A stretch of DNA of 42,109 nt from a virus (lineage: Duplodnaviria; Heunggongvirae; Uroviricota; Caudoviricetes). Location of the stretch: IMG/VR virus record IMGVR_UViG_2724679238_000007, positions 1 through 42,109 of that record; one strand, 5' to 3'. Each line of letters starts with the position of its first letter. The stretch's first letter is position 1. Both the position numbers and the translations under genes were made by a program. The notes beneath the pieces are model-generated. The model searched no databases, was not told the origin of the DNA, and was given only the letters and a program-made list of their open reading frames with translations. Below are positions 3,243 to 30,535 of this stretch, piece after piece.

Positions 3243-3330
3243 CCCGCTGCTAAACGGGTGGCAGGACGTGACGGGGTTAGCAGACTGGCACGAATGAAAC
3301 CAGCAGGCCGAAGCCTCCCCACCACGCCCC
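3243..3330 (-). ncRNA. c4: c4-type antisense RNA, copy 1 (boundaries approximate)
   Basis: Non-coding stretch between the operator/promoter and icd. It contains CACGAATG (3289-3296) presented between a CTGG/CCAG stem, complementary to CATTCGTA present both upstream (3402-3409) and at the icd RBS (3218-3225). It also contains a UUCG hairpin and a 7-bp CTGCTAA/TTAGCAG stem. Confidence 0.45.
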
Positions 3331-3507
3331 ACCATAATTTGGGCGTAACGCGGTTTTACGGACATAAAAATACCGCAATATCGGAAATCTGCGGTTGTCC
3401 GCATTCGTATTCAGGCTGCTAAACCCGGTCGCAGAATTTGCTACGACGGCGGAACTATAAGCCTGAACAACAGGAAGATCAATAGTCTGGCGTTCGATGG
3501 TAGTTTA

Positions 3508-3540
3508 TTTGCTCTAATAAATCAAATTTATTAGAGCAAT
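3508..3540. promoter_or_regulatory. pair of abutting, inverted C1-repressor operators controlling the c4-icd-ant (copy 1) promoter
   Basis: 3524-3540 is a perfect reverse match to ATTGCTCTAATAAATTT; 3508-3524 is a 14/17 forward match. Confidence 0.75.
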
Positions 3541-7006: not shown

Positions 7007-7267
7007 TTATTAACCTCATTACTGGTTGGGAAATAAGGTTGCGGTGCCGGGTGCCTCCCGGTGTCCTTTGGCTGGTTATCCACCGTGGACGGGGAAAAGG
7101 AGAAATTAATGGACTGATATAACCATTTCCCCGCGTGCGCTTAGCCGCATTCACCGCAATGGTAAGAGCACTTGGCTGGCTGGGCGGCGATGACGCCTGT
7201 ACGCATTTGGTGATCCGGTTCTGCTTCCGGCATTCGCTTAATTAGCCAAATACTCTTAACGTTGCGC

Positions 7268-7354
7268 TGGTGGAGAGTAATGGAATCGAACCATCATCGC
7301 TTGCGCAATGGGACGGTTTTCAAGACCGTTTGAGCACCATGCTCCCTACTCTCC
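7268..7354 (-). tRNA. class II tRNA-Ser (anticodon UGA), candidate
   Basis: 87 nt: perfect 7-bp acceptor GGAGAGT/ACTCTCC, anticodon arm ACGGT-CTTGAAA-ACCGT, 17-nt variable arm with a 5-bp stem, T-loop TTCGATT, encoded CCA; D-arm is atypical (4-bp stem, 5-nt loop). Confidence 0.5.
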
Positions 7355-7586
7355 GGCCGTTGTGGTGACCGGTACTGAATCTCCGGCATACGGTGCAGCC
7401 AATTAGGACTACGGACGATCACCGCTCGCGAAAGGGAAGATTTGCGGCCGCATTTCCCTAACATCCAAGAAAGCTATCGCATCAGTCTGCGAATCCACCA
7501 CAACGGAAAGAGCATTTATGGCTCGCATCGCGGGAAAAAGCCCACGGTAGAGAGTCGAACTCTACAAATACTCTTACCTGTTGTGC

Positions 7587-7719
7587 TGGTGCCGGTTAAC
7601 GGATTCGAACCGCTGACCTCTGGCCTAACATCGAATCGTTGTCATTTGACCAGCAAGGCTGTCTACCGAAGTAGAAACGATGCTTTGGCTCTCGTGCTCT
7701 CCCACTGAGCTAAACCGGC
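7587..7719 (-). tRNA. atypical 133-nt tRNA-like gene with Thr-like acceptor, D and T arms but about 57 extra nt in place of a canonical anticodon arm (intervening sequence or pseudogene)
   Basis: Perfect acceptor GCCGGTT/AACCGGC plus A-CCA, D-arm TAGCTCAGTGGGAGAGC, T-arm AGCGG-TTCGAAT-CCGTT; the middle contains a UUCG-capped hairpin (TCTAC-TTCG-GTAGA) and no canonical 5-bp/7-nt anticodon stem-loop; 2 nt from tRNA-Asn. Confidence 0.4.
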
Positions 7720-7721
7720 AT

Positions 7722-7797
7722 TGGCGATGGTGGGTGGATTCGAACCACCGACCAGTTAGTTAACAGCCAACTGCTCTAACCGCTGAGCTACACCATC
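7722..7797 (-). tRNA. tRNA-Asn (anticodon GUU)
   Basis: 76 nt: perfect acceptor GATGGTG/CACCATC, D-arm TAGCTCAGCGGTTAGAGC, anticodon arm GTTGG-CTGTTAA-CTAAC, T-arm GGTGG-TTCGAAT-CCACC, discriminator G plus CCA. Confidence 0.8.
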
Positions 7798-8459
7798 ACT
7801 TGCCGGGTACGTCTCCGGCGAGGGCTTCCACCTCCGTATGCTTTTCGGCGCACCGCGCCCTGGCTGCAATTCGGTAACAGGGGATGCATAACCCTGGCTT
7901 CCAGCGTGATTAGCGCTTTCAGCATGACGGGATATACCCGTGATTGAAACTTTAATGGACCAATGTGAAACACATATGCTGTTACGCCGAATGAAAAAGG
8001 ACGTAACAGGAAAGGGCACTGACCAAAAGATGGCCCCCTTCTCGCTCATCTGGTTAATCGAACCAGCGCCCTTGCCTGTTATGCCTCCCCGTTCCCTAAT
8101 ACACAGACGGGGACACTCTGCGGTCGATTTTTTGACGGGGGACGACTCATACCCCGTGGCGTCTGGCTTCTTAGGCCGCAGCCATCATCAGATCATCGTT
8201 TGCATTTACTTTAATGGTCAGTTTCTAAACCGCCGCAAAGTCGCTAACCATGACGAAAACCCTGAAAAAACGCCCACCCGAAGATGGGCAAACAGGATGT
8301 AAGCTCGTTACGCATTTCGGTATTGCCACTTAGGCGTATGGTCAACCTGGCAACTCGGCGTCATGAGGGGGAAGGAGTCACTACCCCGCCATACTTGCCG
8401 CCGCGCCTGTCGCGGCTAACAGCTAAATCGCTCTATAAATCTCGATTTATCAAGCCCAT

Positions 8460-8487
8460 ATTACACTAATAAATTTATTAGAGCAAT
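8460..8487. promoter_or_regulatory. overlapping inverted pair of C1 operators (palindromic bipartite operator) at the 3' end of dmt
   Basis: 8471-8487 is a perfect reverse match to the C1 consensus; 8460-8476 is a 15/17 forward match; the two overlap on AAATTT; positioned to control leftward transcription into the tRNA-tci-ban-dbn region. Confidence 0.7.
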
Positions 8488-11400
8488 ACAGCAATAACGT
8501 CATGAGCTACACCACGAGTGTTTCCCTTACAAGACACAGAACGTCTGGCAAAAAGAGGTTCCACTCTGAAGCCACTGTCTTGGTAAAGCTCCCTGATGTT
8601 TGGCGCACCACTATTAGTAATGAGGATCTTTGCACCTCGGCGATGAGCATCCATTAGCAGAGATACCAGGCGTTTTTGCTCTTCAAACTTAAAGTCATGA
8701 CCGGAATAGTTTGTGAACCCCTCTGTATTGGGGAGCGGTTCATACGGAGGATCGCAAAAGATGACATCTCCTTCTCCGGCAGCTTCAATCACCGCTGAAA
8801 AATCACCACATACAAACTCAGAACGCCCTTCAGCACCGAGGAAGGCTTCCATCTCCTGTAATGGGAAATACGGAGTTTTATACTTCCCATAACCAACATT
8901 AAACTCACCGGCCTGGTTGTAACGCGTCAATCCGTTAAAACAATGTCGGTTCAGGAACAAAAACGCTGCTGCACGATGTAAATCATCATAGGCTTGTTTG
9001 TTAAACGAATTCCGTACTGCCAGGTATCCTTCCTGTGTGTTGTAGTCCTGGAAAAACCGATGCGCCAGAGTGATAAGTGAATGTCCCTCACGTTGCAGAG
9101 TCCTGTAAAAGTTAATCAGGTCAGCATTCACATCATTTAGCAGATTTTCTTGATATCCGGCATTTATGAAGACAGCTCCGCCACCAACGAAAGGCTCGAT
9201 CAGGCGCTTTCCGTCAGGTAAATGCCTAAAGATTTGTTCAAGAACACCAAATTTTCCGCCGACCCATTTAAATATGGGACGGTCAAATTCTGCCGTTAGC
9301 TTAACTCTCCGTTCTGTTGCTTCATGATTTTTTGCCTGCTGATATGCAGCCTTAATAATCCGCTCACCAATCCATCGCATTACTGGTATCGCCATGCTAT
9401 TGCCGATCGCTTTGTAACGCGGTCCGTCAGCTGCAAGCATCGCGGCCTCTTCTTCGCTTAAATCTGGATAGTGATTGCGAAGGTATGCCAGTTCATCTGA
9501 AGTAACTTTTTTACGCTTTTCCGTCGGGATCAACGTATGCCCATCAGGAAAACCTTGCAGTCTTTCACATTCGACAGGGGTTAGACGGCGCATACTACCG
9601 TCGCCGAGCAATACAATTGGTGCTTCATGGTTACATGTCAAAGTTGGTGCCGAATTATCGGTTTTTATCTCAGCCCCTCCTTGCCCATGTGCCATGGCTA
9701 TTATGTTTGTATCATCGCAAGATCTGATAGCGATGTTTGAAGTATATCTGGTAGTTTCCTTCCCCTCGCCTCTGCTCGGCGCAATATCCCGACGCACGCC
9801 TTCGAACTCAAAAAGTACCGTTGCGGGATCGAGGTCTGTTCGAGCACTTGCGACAACAAACACGCGTCGGCGTCGTTGTGCCACTCCGAAGTATTGGGCA
9901 TCAAGGATTCTCCAGGCCACCTTTCGCTGCGGTCCATAAATACAACCACACTGCGGCCACTTTGGAGCATGGCAACCGGTTTTGACATCCCACCGCCAGA
10001 ACGCGTTACTTTTTCGTGATTCAGGTCGATCACCTGGTTCGAATGGCGCATCTTCTCCAGCCAATCCGGCAAGGAAACATCCAAAGGCGTTATCTGCCGA
10101 TGACAAGACTCCTGGGACATTTTCCCAGACGATAACGGCTGGTTTGAGAAATGACTCAGCCCGTTTGTCGTCAATTGCATTTGCAAGCTCCACATACTTT
10201 AAAGTTAGCGCGCCACGCTCATCATCAAGCCCACCACGTAATCCCGCGATACTGAATGCCTGACAGTTATGGACCACCGCACCATTGAGGATATAGGAAT
10301 GATCACCTTCGACTTCTATGTTGTATACAGTATCTAGGCCTACCGATTTAAACTCTTTGACTGTTCGTAAAAGCATTCCATGAGCCAATCTTGATTTACG
10401 TGACAATTTCTGCGGGCAGATTGTTACCTGATAATAATTCCGTTGATTTACCACGCGATCCTCGATCACTTTTTTGGGCTCAACTTCAATAAAGCTGACC
10501 GAAGAAACATAACCACAAGTCTGTGACACCCCCGCAACGCCCCAAGCAAGCGCAGGACTAACACTATTAATTCTAAATCCCGCTTTACCACTTGGTGTCC
10601 CATCAGTATCAAGATAGCCTTGTAAAAACACATGACGCAATGGATGCGACATCACCCATGCAGGGATACGCTTAGCATGGCTTAACTCGCCAAAATGTTC
10701 ATTAAGCCAATTGGCATAACACGTATCATTCAAGGTTACTTTGATGCTCCCTCGGATTTCTCTTGCCACGGAAAATATGTTTTCTGGTATGCGACAATGA
10801 AACTTTCTCAATTTCTGGCAATTTATGCCAAAAACAACCGCCTTCTTAGATTTACCTCTCCATCTCCTAATATATCCATCGCCAACATAAGCGCCCGCAA
10901 GATACATAGCCTGTTCTTCAGACAAGAACCGAGAACAAATATCTGGAGATGCAATATTGAAATTAGTTAGAGCGCACCATTGATATCCTGGCATATCACA
11001 TGCTGCTCGCCATTCCGGTTCAGACAACAACTCTCTCTTAAAATATGTGCCATTTTTCCGGGTGTTTTGGGCTTTCCACCGAACAGCTAGGAAGGGATGG
11101 TCATTGGTTGTTCTTATACCTAAAGGCTGCCCAACGGCATTAAGTAACCCCGTATTAGCTATTTTTGAACCAACTCTTTTTACTTGTTGTAACCGCCCGA
11201 GATGACTGACTACGTAATCGCCAGGGCAAACATCTTCTATTGGTTTATAACCATTTTTACAAAGAACCATATGCCCCGCGGTAAAACATGGTGTTCCCCC
11301 GACGAGCACGTCAGGGGATTCGATTTCCCCAGCCAGGACTTTTTTGGCAAGTTTAGTCATGTCGCCAAGGTTGGCGACATGGGGCCAGCGGTGCGCAAGA

Positions 11401-11519
11401 ACGGCAGATGGAAAAGGCTCGATTTCAGCAAACCAAGCCGGACGCATACCCAACGGTTCCCAGGCAATACTCGCAGCTTCTATTCCACTGCAAACAGATC
11501 CATAGCACAGCTCTTTCAC
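8478..11519 (-). CDS. dmt: bifunctional DNA methyltransferase: N-terminal C5-cytosine MTase fused to C-terminal Dam-like N6-adenine MTase, interrupted in-frame by an intein
   Basis: GTG start with GGAGAGG SD, overlapping the hrdC stop. C5-MTase motifs include ENV (VWENVPG), QRRRRVFVV and AIGNSM; the PCQ motif is split as GGTP|intein|CQAFSIAG. Dam-like half has FKWVGGK and DPPY and is alignable to E. coli Dam as recalled. Confidence 0.9.
10266..11288 (-). mobile_element. intein (341 aa) with Hint splicing blocks and a LAGLIDADG homing-endonuclease domain, inserted at the catalytic Cys of the C5-MTase PCQ motif
   Basis: Begins with Cys ([10 protein letters not shown]...), block B-like TNDHPF, two LAGLIDADG motifs ([12 protein letters not shown] and [11 protein letters not shown]), ends ...ILNGAVVHN followed by +1 Cys; in-silico excision restores [12 protein letters not shown]. 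Confidence 0.8.
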
Positions 11520-30240: not shown

Positions 30241-30328
30241 CCCGCTGCTAAACAGGTGGCAGGACGTGACGGGGTTAGCAGACTGGCGATTGTGAAACCA
30301 GCAGGCCGAAGCCTCCCCATCACGCCCC
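30241..30328 (-). ncRNA. c4: c4-type antisense RNA, copy 2, with an altered recognition octamer (boundaries approximate)
   Basis: Same architecture as copy 1, but the loop octamer is CGATTGTG (30287-30294), complementary to CACAATCA at 30216-30223 (icd RBS) and 30400-30407. Confidence 0.45.
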
Positions 30329-30518
30329 ACCATAATTTGGGCGTAACGCGGTTTTACGGACACAAAAATACCGCAATATCGGATATCTGCGGCTGTCCGC
30401 ACAATCATTCAGGCTGCTAAACCCGGTCGCAGAATTTGCTACGACGGCGAAACTATAAGCCTGAACGATTAAAAGGTCAATATGATGCGAAAAGATAGCA
30501 TTCGCGACTTAAAAATAC

Positions 30519-30535
30519 AAATTTATTAGAGCAGA
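30519..30535. promoter_or_regulatory. C1-repressor operator upstream of c4-icd-ant copy 2
   Basis: AAATTTATTAGAGCAGA is a 15/17 reverse match to the C1 consensus. Confidence 0.65.

What the first reader, a model, noticed from the sequence alone, without database searches (positions are those of the whole stretch)
7587..7719. 133-nt tRNA-like gene with intact acceptor, D and T arms but an insertion replacing the anticodon arm
Immediately next to tRNA-Asn is a sequence with a perfect 7-bp acceptor stem (GCCGGTT/AACCGGC), discriminator plus CCA, and canonical D and T arms resembling tRNA-Thr. However about 80 nt lie between D and T arms instead of about 22, including a UUCG-capped hairpin, and I could not fold a canonical anticodon stem-loop. 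Bacterial tRNA introns are normally group I introns of more than 200 nt, so a 57-nt insertion is unusual; alternatives are a pseudogene or a tRNA-derived regulatory RNA.
Basis: seen in the sequence. Interest (0 to 1): 0.6.

Follow-up and report, generated by a model that had tools for sequence, protein, structure and literature searches.

The report
tRNA-shaped phage RNA without an anticodon
A P1-like phage-plasmid carries, where phage P1 has its threonine tRNA, a conserved 133-nt RNA gene with a normal tRNA body but a nearly invariant four-helix domain instead of the anticodon arm. The same domain sits in differently sequenced tRNA bodies in unrelated phages, so it looks like an undescribed tRNA-like RNA family of unknown function.

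Summary
Window 7587-7719 (- strand) has a 7-bp acceptor stem, D arm, AGGUC variable loop, T arm and ACCA, but 75 nt where a 17-nt anticodon stem-loop belongs. ARAGORN and Rfam call no tRNA there; RefSeq annotates the SSU5-like plasmid copy (97.7% identical) as 'tRNA-OTHER'. P1, P7 and D6 have an ordinary tRNA-Thr(UGU) at this site.

It is not a pseudogene or a simple intron. I found 15 distinct versions (131-135 nt), always co-oriented in or beside phage tRNA arrays: P1-like and SSU5-like plasmids, an N4-like phage, contigs of up to 866 kb. Acceptor and T stems differ between lineages with compensatory changes. The core (three hairpins plus junctions) is 100% identical and only its loops vary. 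No canonical anticodon loop exists in any member.

Best reading: a non-decoding, tRNA-scaffolded structured RNA that is matured like a tRNA and acts through its invariant module. It may act in the conflict over tRNA-Thr/Asn/Lys cleaved by the OLD and PARIS nucleases. That role is inference only. Nothing matched in Rfam 15 or in the literature I could search.

The parts
7587..7719 (-). Whole 133-nt tRNA-like RNA gene (tRNA body plus module)
   Evidence: Sequence. The covariance model built from 15 family members matches over its full length. A 97.7%-identical 133-nt copy in the SSU5-like plasmid pTHO-010-2 is annotated 'tRNA-OTHER' in RefSeq.
7713..7719 (-). Acceptor stem, 5' strand GCCGGUU. 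It pairs with 7591-7597 (AACCGGC).
   Evidence: Six of the 7 pairs show compensatory double changes across the family.
7696..7710 (-). D arm GCUC-AGUGGGA-GAGC
   Evidence: G18 and G19 are kept.
7690..7694 (-). 5' connector C27-GAGA. C27 can pair with G43 (7620); the remaining bases face only C and A (7621-7622), so there is no Watson-Crick anticodon stem.
   Evidence: Alignment A3. In lineage L008 the same segment forms a regular AAGGG/CCUUU stem.
7687..7689 (-). P1, 5' strand GCC. It pairs with 7623-7625 (GGC).
   Evidence: Covaries: GGG/CCC in L156 and GGC/GCC in L008.
7678..7683 (-). P2, 5' strand GCAUCG. It pairs with 7628-7633 (CGAUGU). The internal loop AAA (7684-7686) / UA (7626-7627) lies below it.
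   Evidence: The pair at A3 columns 40:94 occurs as C-G, G-C, U-A and A-U. RNAalifold predicts the same helix.
7662..7675 (-). P3 hairpin UCUAC-UUCG-GUAGA
   Evidence: The stem is invariant in all 15 sequences; the loop is CUCG in L156.
7651..7661 (-). P4 hairpin CAGC-CUU-GCUG
   Evidence: The stem is invariant. The loop varies in sequence and length (3-4 nt), with identity 0.32.
7641..7650 (-). P5 hairpin GUC-AAAU-GAC
   Evidence: The stem is invariant and the loop varies.
7634..7640 (-). Conserved junction strand AACGAUU (J5/2). It can alternatively pair with AUCGUU (7676-7681) to give a linker-free four-way junction.
   Evidence: Identity 0.96.
7615..7619 (-). Variable loop AGGUC
7598..7614 (-). 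T arm AGCGG-UUCGAAU-CCGUU
   Evidence: Three of the 5 stem pairs show compensatory changes.
7587..7597 (-). Acceptor stem 3' strand AACCGGC, discriminator A and CCA
   Evidence: Nearly all family members encode N-CC followed by A, C or U.
7722..7797 (-). tRNA-Asn(GUU), immediately upstream in the same transcription direction
   Evidence: ARAGORN and Rfam.
7268..7354 (-). tRNA-Ser(UGA), downstream in the same direction
   Evidence: ARAGORN.
8460..8487 (.). Bivalent C1 operator like Op(ban)/Op72 of P1 and P7, upstream of the tRNA cluster
   Evidence: Exact and 2-mismatch matches to ATTGCTCTAATAAATTT.

Best explanation
This is a real, selectively maintained gene for a non-decoding tRNA-like RNA. 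It joins a complete tRNA 'upper body' (acceptor stem, D arm, variable loop, T arm, encoded CCA) to a 73-nt structured module that replaces the anticodon stem-loop. The module has a short irregular connector, helices P1 and P2, three abutting hairpins P3-P5 and a conserved 7-nt junction strand. Inferred steps: it is transcribed with the phage tRNA genes, which in this P1-like element means from the C1-repressed ban-operon promoter, so mainly during lytic growth. It is then cut out by RNase P and the 3' tRNA-processing and CCA enzymes like its neighbours, and it is stable because of the tRNA fold. The nearly invariant module is the working part and most likely binds a conserved macromolecule. 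It replaces tRNA-Thr(UGU) next to tRNA-Asn(GUU), and these tRNAs are targets of the OLD and PARIS Toprim nucleases. My preferred specific guess is therefore a tRNA-shaped decoy or inhibitor in the phage-host conflict over tRNAs. What is shown: the anatomy, the conservation, the covariation, the genomic context and the allelism with tRNA-Thr. What is inferred: processing, stability, lack of decoding, and above all the molecular target.
For: Searches show tRNA body features but no tRNA call. Searches show P1, P7 and D6 carry a plain tRNA-Thr at the same site with the same acceptor and T arms. (H6) shows SSU5-like Cyrano has Ser-Thr-Asn, while SSU5-like pTHO-010-2 has Asn-Tyr-OTHER-Ser. The element is full length in 11 plasmids, in phage Jgk1, in 11 IMG/VR contigs and in 10 metagenome contigs. 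It is always co-oriented with phage tRNAs, inside the arrays or up to about 1 kb from them. One carrier is N4-like, identified by its virion RNA polymerase. In the covariation test, 98.8% of cells are paired, 13 pairs have double changes, 0 of 500 shuffles reach this, and slid controls reach at most 43% paired. RNAalifold independently finds the same helices. Pairwise identity is 1.00 in the P3-P5 stems and 0.96-1.00 in the junction strands, against 0.45 in the acceptor stem and 0.32 in the P4 loop. A C1 operator pair lies upstream. Literature: tRNA-Thr(UGU) is the prime target of P2 OLD (PMC12445682). PARIS AriB cleaves Lys(UUU), Thr(UGU) and Asn(GUU), and phage tRNA variants counter it (PMC12409363).
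Against: There are no expression, processing or binding data. The single-sequence minimum-energy fold (-49.3 kcal/mol) is not the cloverleaf-plus-module fold (-41.2 kcal/mol). P3-P5 are supported by invariance and loop variability only, not by covariation. No protein gene is consistently linked to the element. No tRNA-nuclease or other relevant defence gene was seen among the 10 window ORFs tested. In the OLD study, rescue by phage tRNA-Thr was by replacement, not by competitive inhibition, so a decoy mechanism has no precedent there. The family is rare: 6 of 5426 complete E. coli genomes and 11 of 2.9 million IMG/VR contigs.
Confidence: 0.55

Rival explanations
1. It is a tRNA-scaffolded regulatory RNA or ligand or protein sponge unrelated to tRNA nucleases. 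The tRNA body only provides processing and stability, like the engineered 'tRNA scaffold'. The module binds some other host factor or small molecule, or is released as a small RNA.
For: The anatomical evidence is the same as for the best explanation. Acceptor sequence and discriminator base are not conserved (A, U, C or G), as expected if the body is only a chassis. The same P1 operon also carries a dicF-like small-RNA region.
Against: The module is almost fully base-paired, leaving little for antisense pairing. No complementarity above chance was found to the window or to E. coli genomes. No Rfam aptamer or ribozyme matches.
Confidence: 0.22
2. It is a tRNA-Thr(UGU) gene interrupted by a new kind of small intron or intervening sequence that is removed to give a working tRNA.
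For: It occupies the tRNA-Thr slot with the Thr-type acceptor and T arm. A UGU triplet lies in the P2 3' strand (7628-7630). Lineage L008 keeps a regular 5-bp stem in the anticodon-stem position.
Against: In the window type, the bases flanking the module (CGAGA / CAG) cannot form an anticodon stem. No member has a 7-nt loop with U33 and a purine at 37. No cut-and-join of the conserved helices leaves a loop around UGU. There is no group I intron signal. No bacterial pathway for such splicing is known (my own knowledge).
Confidence: 0.05
3. It is a dead tRNA-Thr gene disrupted by junk DNA or a small mobile insertion (a pseudogene).
For: No tRNA predictor calls it. It is rare among P1-like plasmids.
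Against: A length of 131-135 nt and all helices are kept across more than six scaffold lineages, with compensatory changes. The module never occurs outside a tRNA body or as a dispersed repeat.
Confidence: 0.03
4. It is an aminoacylated tRNA mimic that works on the ribosome without a normal anticodon loop (tmRNA-like), or it uses the conserved 5'-RNA-3'/5'-UNU-3' triplet duplex in P2 as a built-in codon:anticodon helix.
For: The CC(A) end and the tRNA core are conserved. The only freely covarying P2 pair is the middle of GCA/UGU, ACA/UGU, AGA/UCU, AUA/UAU and AAA/UUU. UGU is the anticodon of the tRNA it replaces.
Against: There is no G3-U70 or any other conserved identity set. ARAGORN finds no tmRNA. 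The GCA-UAG reading frame is not conserved. The bulky four-way junction lies beyond the triplet, where a decoding tRNA has no room (inference).
Confidence: 0.05
5. The invariant core is a DNA-level site, such as a recombination or homing target, that happens to lie in a tRNA gene.
For: The stems are 100% identical rather than covarying. A cassette of tRNA-Asn, the element and tRNA-Ser is shared between P1-like and SSU5-like plasmids.
Against: Variation is confined exactly to the hairpin loops, and the surrounding tRNA stems covary, which is an RNA-level signature. No associated nuclease or recombinase gene was found.
Confidence: 0.05

Closest known systems
Phage tRNA-Thr(UGU) of P1, P7, D6 and T4-like phages
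   Same: Same genomic slot right after tRNA-Asn. The acceptor stem is identical to P7 and one base different from P1 and D6. The T arm is nearly identical. The D arm and variable loop are of the same type. It is the best-scoring ordinary tRNA for the family model, at 52-56 bits.
   Different: Positions 28-42 (anticodon stem and loop) are replaced by 73 nt. There is no canonical anticodon loop, and tRNA finders do not call it.
T4 'species 1' and 'species 2' stable RNAs (rnaC 139 nt, rnaD 119 nt)
   Same: They are stable RNAs of tRNA-like size class encoded inside a phage tRNA cluster. rnaC has a canonical T arm and a terminal stem. Their function is not given in the record annotation and, to my knowledge, is still unknown.
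   Different: There is no sequence or model similarity: model R1 does not hit rnaC or rnaD. rnaC lacks a canonical D arm and a perfect acceptor stem, and its inner domains are different.
tmRNA tRNA-like domain
   Same: An acceptor/T-arm tRNA mimic whose anticodon arm is replaced by other RNA; it is matured like a tRNA.
   Different: tmRNA has G3-U70, no D stem, pseudoknots and a tag reading frame. None of these is present here.
Bacterial and phage Y RNA-like RNAs (YrlA, RF02553)
   Same: A non-coding RNA with tRNA-like D and T arms that is sometimes phage-encoded.
   Different: In YrlA the 5' and 3' ends form the Ro-binding stem and the tRNA-like part is distal. Here the ends form the acceptor stem. 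The Rfam score is 21.4 against a gathering score of 69, and that match comes from the neighbouring tRNA parts.
Engineered 'tRNA scaffold' for recombinant RNA (anticodon arm replaced by a cargo RNA; recalled from my own knowledge, Ponchon and Dardel)
   Same: Identical design principle: tRNA body plus a foreign structured RNA in place of the anticodon stem-loop, giving correct processing and stability.
   Different: That scaffold is artificial. This would be a natural, evolutionarily conserved counterpart.

Membership tests
Canonical elongator tRNA (tRNA-Thr) | 7-bp acceptor stem, D arm, T arm with conserved tertiary bases, discriminator and CCA | tested here: met
   Sequence. Covariation in the acceptor and T stems.
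Canonical elongator tRNA (tRNA-Thr) | 5-bp anticodon stem and 7-nt loop with U33, anticodon and purine 37 | tested here: not met
   75 nt lie between position 26 and the variable loop, and no such loop exists in any of the 15 members.
Canonical elongator tRNA (tRNA-Thr) | Recognised by tRNA gene finders or Rfam RF00005 at or above the gathering score | tested here: not met
   ARAGORN gives no call. RF00005 scores 13.5 bits against 29 in the window. A relative in L149 reaches 43.6 bits with the module treated as an insert. PGAP labels a 97.7%-identical plasmid copy 'tRNA-OTHER'.
Canonical elongator tRNA (tRNA-Thr) | Aminoacylation and decoding | not testable with these tools
   Needs acid-gel or tRNA-seq charging assays.
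tRNA gene with group I intron | Intron of about 200 nt or more with a group I core, in the anticodon loop; exons restore the anticodon stem-loop | tested here: not met
   No Intron_gpI hit. The extra length is only 57 nt. The flanks do not restore a stem-loop.
tmRNA | tRNA-like domain with G3-U70, tag reading frame with resume and stop codons, pseudoknots | tested here: not met
   ARAGORN finds no tmRNA. Position 3:70 is C-G or U-A. The GCA...UAG frame is not conserved.
YrlA / Y RNA-like (RF02553) | Rfam score at or above 69 bits; termini form the Ro-binding helix | tested here: not met
   21.4 bits, spanning the tRNA-Asn T arm and this D arm. The topology is the reverse.
Known small self-cleaving ribozymes and riboswitch aptamers (Rfam 15) | Match to a family covariance model | tested here: not met
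   No hit with E of 10 or below in the module.
T4 rnaC/rnaD stable RNAs | Sequence or structure homology to T4 species 1 or 2 RNA | tested here: not met
   Model R1 finds the T4 tRNAs but not rnaC or rnaD. The folds differ. Only the genomic setting is shared.
tRNA pseudogene | No constraint: decay of stems, no conservation outside close relatives | tested here: not met
   Compensatory changes and an invariant module across lineages.

The most novel reading that the evidence does not exclude
The RNA is an RNA-based anti-defence factor: a tRNA-Thr-shaped pseudo-substrate. Its uncleavable, invariant 'anticodon-arm' module may include the built-in ANA:UNU triplet helix and the paired CAG/CUG in P4. 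The module would trap or inhibit tRNA-targeting immune nucleases such as OLD-family or PARIS Toprim enzymes, or another tRNA-binding host factor. That would be a natural use of the tRNA scaffold by several phage families.
Probability: 0.15. Interest if true: 0.85.

Novelty: new variant of a known kind. Interest (0 to 1): 0.62.

Why it matters
Phage tRNA genes are now understood as weapons against host nucleases that cut tRNAs, and tRNA-Thr(UGU), tRNA-Asn and tRNA-Lys are the main battleground. A conserved RNA that keeps the tRNA body, discards the anticodon arm for an invariant structured domain, and sits in the tRNA-Thr slot would be a new kind of player in that conflict. At the least it is a new structured RNA family with a natural 'tRNA scaffold' design. 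It is small, well defined and directly testable in P1-like plasmids. It also explains 'tRNA-OTHER' annotations in RefSeq phage-plasmids. Together with the T4 species 1 and 2 RNAs and the nested double tRNA-like gene seen here in a large contig, it suggests that phage tRNA arrays hide several non-decoding RNAs.

Tried and rejected
1. A canonical tRNA under other boundaries. ARAGORN and Rfam, both at gathering score and at E up to 10, found none.

2. A known RNA family, ribozyme or riboswitch. There were no hits.

3. More divergent relatives by pattern scans. One pattern was mistyped and wasted. One was too loose and returned only chance hits. Three other patterns, each freeing a different part of the core, returned the same 11 IMG/VR contigs. 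A flank-only pattern allowing any module gave 19 extra loci, none of which matched the model. The genome-contig scan gave only chance hits.

4. A linked protein gene. All-against-all comparison of neighbouring ORFs found only a Gp49-like phage protein shared by some lineages at variable distance. A PADLOC scan of 10 window ORFs found only the Dmt methyltransferase.

5. An antisense target. No complementarity above chance in the window. In E. coli genomes there is only a 20-nt same-sense match in the ylaC-pdeB spacer.

6. A tmRNA-like tag frame (GCA UCG UUU CUA CUU CGG UAG). It is not conserved.

7. K-turn or loop-E motifs in the connector. Hand comparison gave no consistent match, so I dropped it.

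8. Literature. Seven full-text searches, including searches for the core sequence itself, found no description.

Full report
**Observation.** On the - strand, window 7719..7587 reads GCCGGUU UA GCUC AGUGGGA GAGC A [75 nt] AGGUC AGCGG UUCGAAU CCGUU AACCGGC A CCA. The gene begins 2 nt after tRNA-Asn(GUU) (7722-7797). ARAGORN finds only tRNA-Met(CAU), tRNA-Ser(UGA) and tRNA-Asn in the window. Rfam finds no tRNA or any other family here, either at gathering score or at E up to 10; the best match is a partial 13.5-bit tRNA alignment. So the refutation 'a canonical tRNA with other boundaries' does not apply.

**Setting.** The window is a P1/P7/D6-like phage-plasmid, shown by C4 antisense RNAs, a sok-like RNA and close DNA matches to P7 and D6. 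The gene order on the - strand is as follows:
- dmt (8478-11519)
- a bivalent C1 operator like Op(ban) (8460-8487)
- tRNA-Asn
- the element
- a spacer of about 230 nt
- tRNA-Ser
- tciA, tciB and tciC
- tRNA-Ile2(CAU)
- ban

This is the C1-controlled ban operon of P1 and P7. P1, P7 and D6 carry an ordinary 73-76 nt tRNA-Thr(UGU) exactly where the element lies. Its acceptor stem is identical in P7 and one base different in P1 and D6, and its T arm is nearly identical. Only positions 28-42 differ (alignment A1). The element is therefore allelic to tRNA-Thr. It is a substitution of the whole anticodon stem-loop, not a clean insertion.

**Distribution.**
- The 133-nt sequence is full length in 11 of 72,556 plasmids: E. 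albertii P1-like at 100%, E. coli SSU5-like at 97.7%, and Salmonella pSTM_Phi-type at 92-93%.
- It is present in E. coli phage Jgk1 at 89%.
- It is present in 6 of 5426 complete E. coli genomes. In pTHO-010-2, RefSeq annotates it as a 133-nt 'tRNA-OTHER' between tRNA-Tyr and tRNA-Ser.
- Exact-pattern scans for the core found 11 IMG/VR contigs and 10 metagenome contigs.
- Together these give 15 distinct sequences of 131-135 nt.
- Carriers include an N4-like phage, identified by its virion RNA polymerase, and contigs of 135-866 kb.
- In every case the element is co-oriented with phage tRNA genes, inside the arrays or up to about 1 kb from them.
- SSU5-like relatives without the module have a plain tRNA-Thr in the same cluster (H6). 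Both alleles therefore exist in two phage-plasmid families.

**Structure.** A MAFFT alignment (A3) was tested against a hand-derived structure. In that test 98.8% of cells are paired and 13 pairs show changes on both sides. None of 500 shuffles reaches the observed values, and slid controls reach only 29-43% paired. RNAalifold independently predicts the same helices. The helices behave as follows:
- **Acceptor stem.** Six of 7 pairs covary: GCCGGUU, GUCCGUU, GGUUUUU, GUUCACU, (A)GUCGGG and (A)GCUUGU, each with its complement.
- **T stem.** Three of 5 pairs covary.
- **P1.** It occurs as GCC/GGC, GGG/CCC and GGC/GCC.
- **P2.** One pair occurs as C-G, G-C, U-A and A-U.
- **P3, P4 and P5.** P3 is UCUAC-UUCG-GUAGA, P4 is CAGC-loop-GCUG and P5 is GUC-loop-GAC. 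With the junction strands UU and AACGAUU they never or hardly vary, while the P4 and P5 loops vary in sequence and length.

Pairwise identity between seven lineage representatives is 1.00 for the P3-P5 stems and 0.96-1.00 for the junctions. It is 0.45 for the acceptor stem and 0.32 for the P4 loop. Between the tRNA core and P1, the window type has only C27-G43 and a purine-rich asymmetric loop (GAGA against CA). Lineage L008 has a regular stem there.

Two limits apply. P3-P5 rest on invariance plus loop variability, not on covariation. The single-sequence minimum free energy fold (-49.3 kcal/mol, z = -3.3) differs from the family structure (-41.2 kcal/mol).

**What it is not.**
- **Not a pseudogene.** Length, helices and core are maintained across lineages whose tRNA stems have been completely rewritten.
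- **Not a group I or any simple intron.** The flanks do not re-form an anticodon stem-loop, and no member has a canonical 7-nt anticodon loop with U33 and a purine at 37.
- **Not tmRNA.** There is no G3-U70, the tag frame is not conserved, and ARAGORN is negative.
- **Not YrlA.** The score is 21.4 against 69 bits, and the topology is the reverse.
- **Not a dispersed repeat.** The module never occurs outside this tRNA body, and the body's conserved flanks never carry another module.
- **Not homologous to T4 rnaC/rnaD.** These are the known stable RNAs in a phage tRNA cluster. They are the closest analogue by setting but show no homology.

**Likely mechanism.** The intact tRNA core and the conserved N-CC(A/C/U) 3' end argue that the RNA is excised and finished by the tRNA-processing machinery and folds into an L-shape. 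In that fold the long arm ends in a compact four-helix domain. Non-conserved acceptor identity and a variable discriminator argue against a fixed aminoacylation identity. The invariant, mostly base-paired module points to recognition by a conserved macromolecule rather than antisense pairing. No target complementarity was found.

[quoted passage not shown] Phage tRNA variants counter both. P1's plain tRNA-Thr carries C28U29G30/C40A41G42. The element has no Watson-Crick anticodon stem. I therefore favour a tRNA-shaped decoy or inhibitor, or another tRNA-scaffolded binder. This is inference: the descriptive claim is strong and the specific target is a guess at roughly 0.15-0.2.

**Unexplained details.**
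1. The freely covarying P2 pair is the centre of a triplet duplex: GCA/UGU (window, SSU5-like, Jgk1), ACA/UGU (N4-like), AGA/UCU, AUA/UAU and AAA/UUU. This looks like a built-in codon:anticodon helix, and UGU is the anticodon of the tRNA it replaces.
2. AUCGUU can pair either with the P2 3' strand or with AACGAU of the junction. The second pairing gives a linker-free four-way junction only 4-5 kcal/mol less stable, and the CGAU..CGAU repeat is conserved. This suggests a possible two-state switch.
3. P4 is itself a paired CAG/CUG.

**Novelty.** No Rfam 15 family matched. No paper in the searchable library describes the element, including searches for the core sequence itself. The only trace found in public annotation is 'tRNA-OTHER'. 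I rate it a new variant of a known kind (tRNA-like non-coding RNAs), with moderate to high interest.

Noticed in passing
window 7355-7530 (- strand): A block of about 170 nt directly upstream of tRNA-Ser is conserved in the window, SSU5-like pDETEC87, D6 and P7. It is closed by a perfect 12-bp long-range inverted repeat, CCGUUGUGGUGG...CCACCACAACGG (alignment A4). The fold z-score is only -1.7 and there is no Rfam hit. It may be a processing element or another non-coding RNA.
   Followed up: partly
window 7561-7586 and 7245-7267 (- strand): Both the element and tRNA-Ser are followed by a similar 3' trailer: GCACAACAGGUAAGAGUAUUUG after the element and GCGCAACGUUAAGAGUAUUUGG after tRNA-Ser. A T-arm-like hairpin, GUAGAG-UUCGACU-CUCUAC, lies at about 7545-7563.
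   Followed up: no
L149 5212-5434 (= L011 677-899; also L147): In the large contigs that carry the GGUUUUU-type element, the gene just upstream looks like one nested 'double tRNA-like' RNA of about 223 nt. It has an outer acceptor stem (GUCUCCC/AGGGGAC plus ACCA), two D arms, two T arms and an internal closed acceptor-like hairpin (AAGGCU/AGCCUU). ARAGORN does not call it. Model R1 and Rfam tRNA and YrlA hit it weakly. An odd 77-nt tRNA-like gene follows at L149 5437-5513.
   Followed up: partly
L145 2501-2520 (E. coli ylaC-pdeB intergenic region): A 20-nt exact same-sense match to module bases CUGGUCAAAUGACAACGAUU occurs in about 560 E. coli chromosomes, just after the ylaC terminator-like hairpin. 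There is no flanking similarity. By my rough estimate this is unlikely by chance in a non-redundant pan-genome, but it remains unexplained.
   Followed up: partly
window 8478-11519 (- strand): The Dmt (Dam/Dcm-type) methyltransferase ORF is 1013 aa, far longer than the gene lengths annotated in P1 (2265 nt) and P7 (2019 nt). It contains a segment ending ...[15 protein letters not shown], which looks like an intein or Hint insertion. This was not verified.
   Followed up: no
window 3254-3460 and 30252-30458 (- strand): There are two separate copies of the C4 antisense RNA with its a1/b1 targets (immI-type immunity modules), each near a C1 operator match (3508-3540; 30519-30535).
   Followed up: no
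window 7722-7797 compared with P1/P7/D6: The tRNA-Asn next to the element is also a different allele from that of P1, P7 and D6, with changes in the anticodon stem and T stem. The Salmonella SSU5-like plasmids have the same Asn-element junction, and the spacer block plus tRNA-Ser is shared with pDETEC87. The tRNA region therefore appears to have been exchanged between phage-plasmid families.
   Followed up: partly
window 8271-8296 (- strand): A strong terminator-like hairpin with a UUCG loop lies between the ban-type operator and tRNA-Asn, where P1 annotates a dicF-like region. Rfam did not call DicF at gathering score.
   Followed up: no
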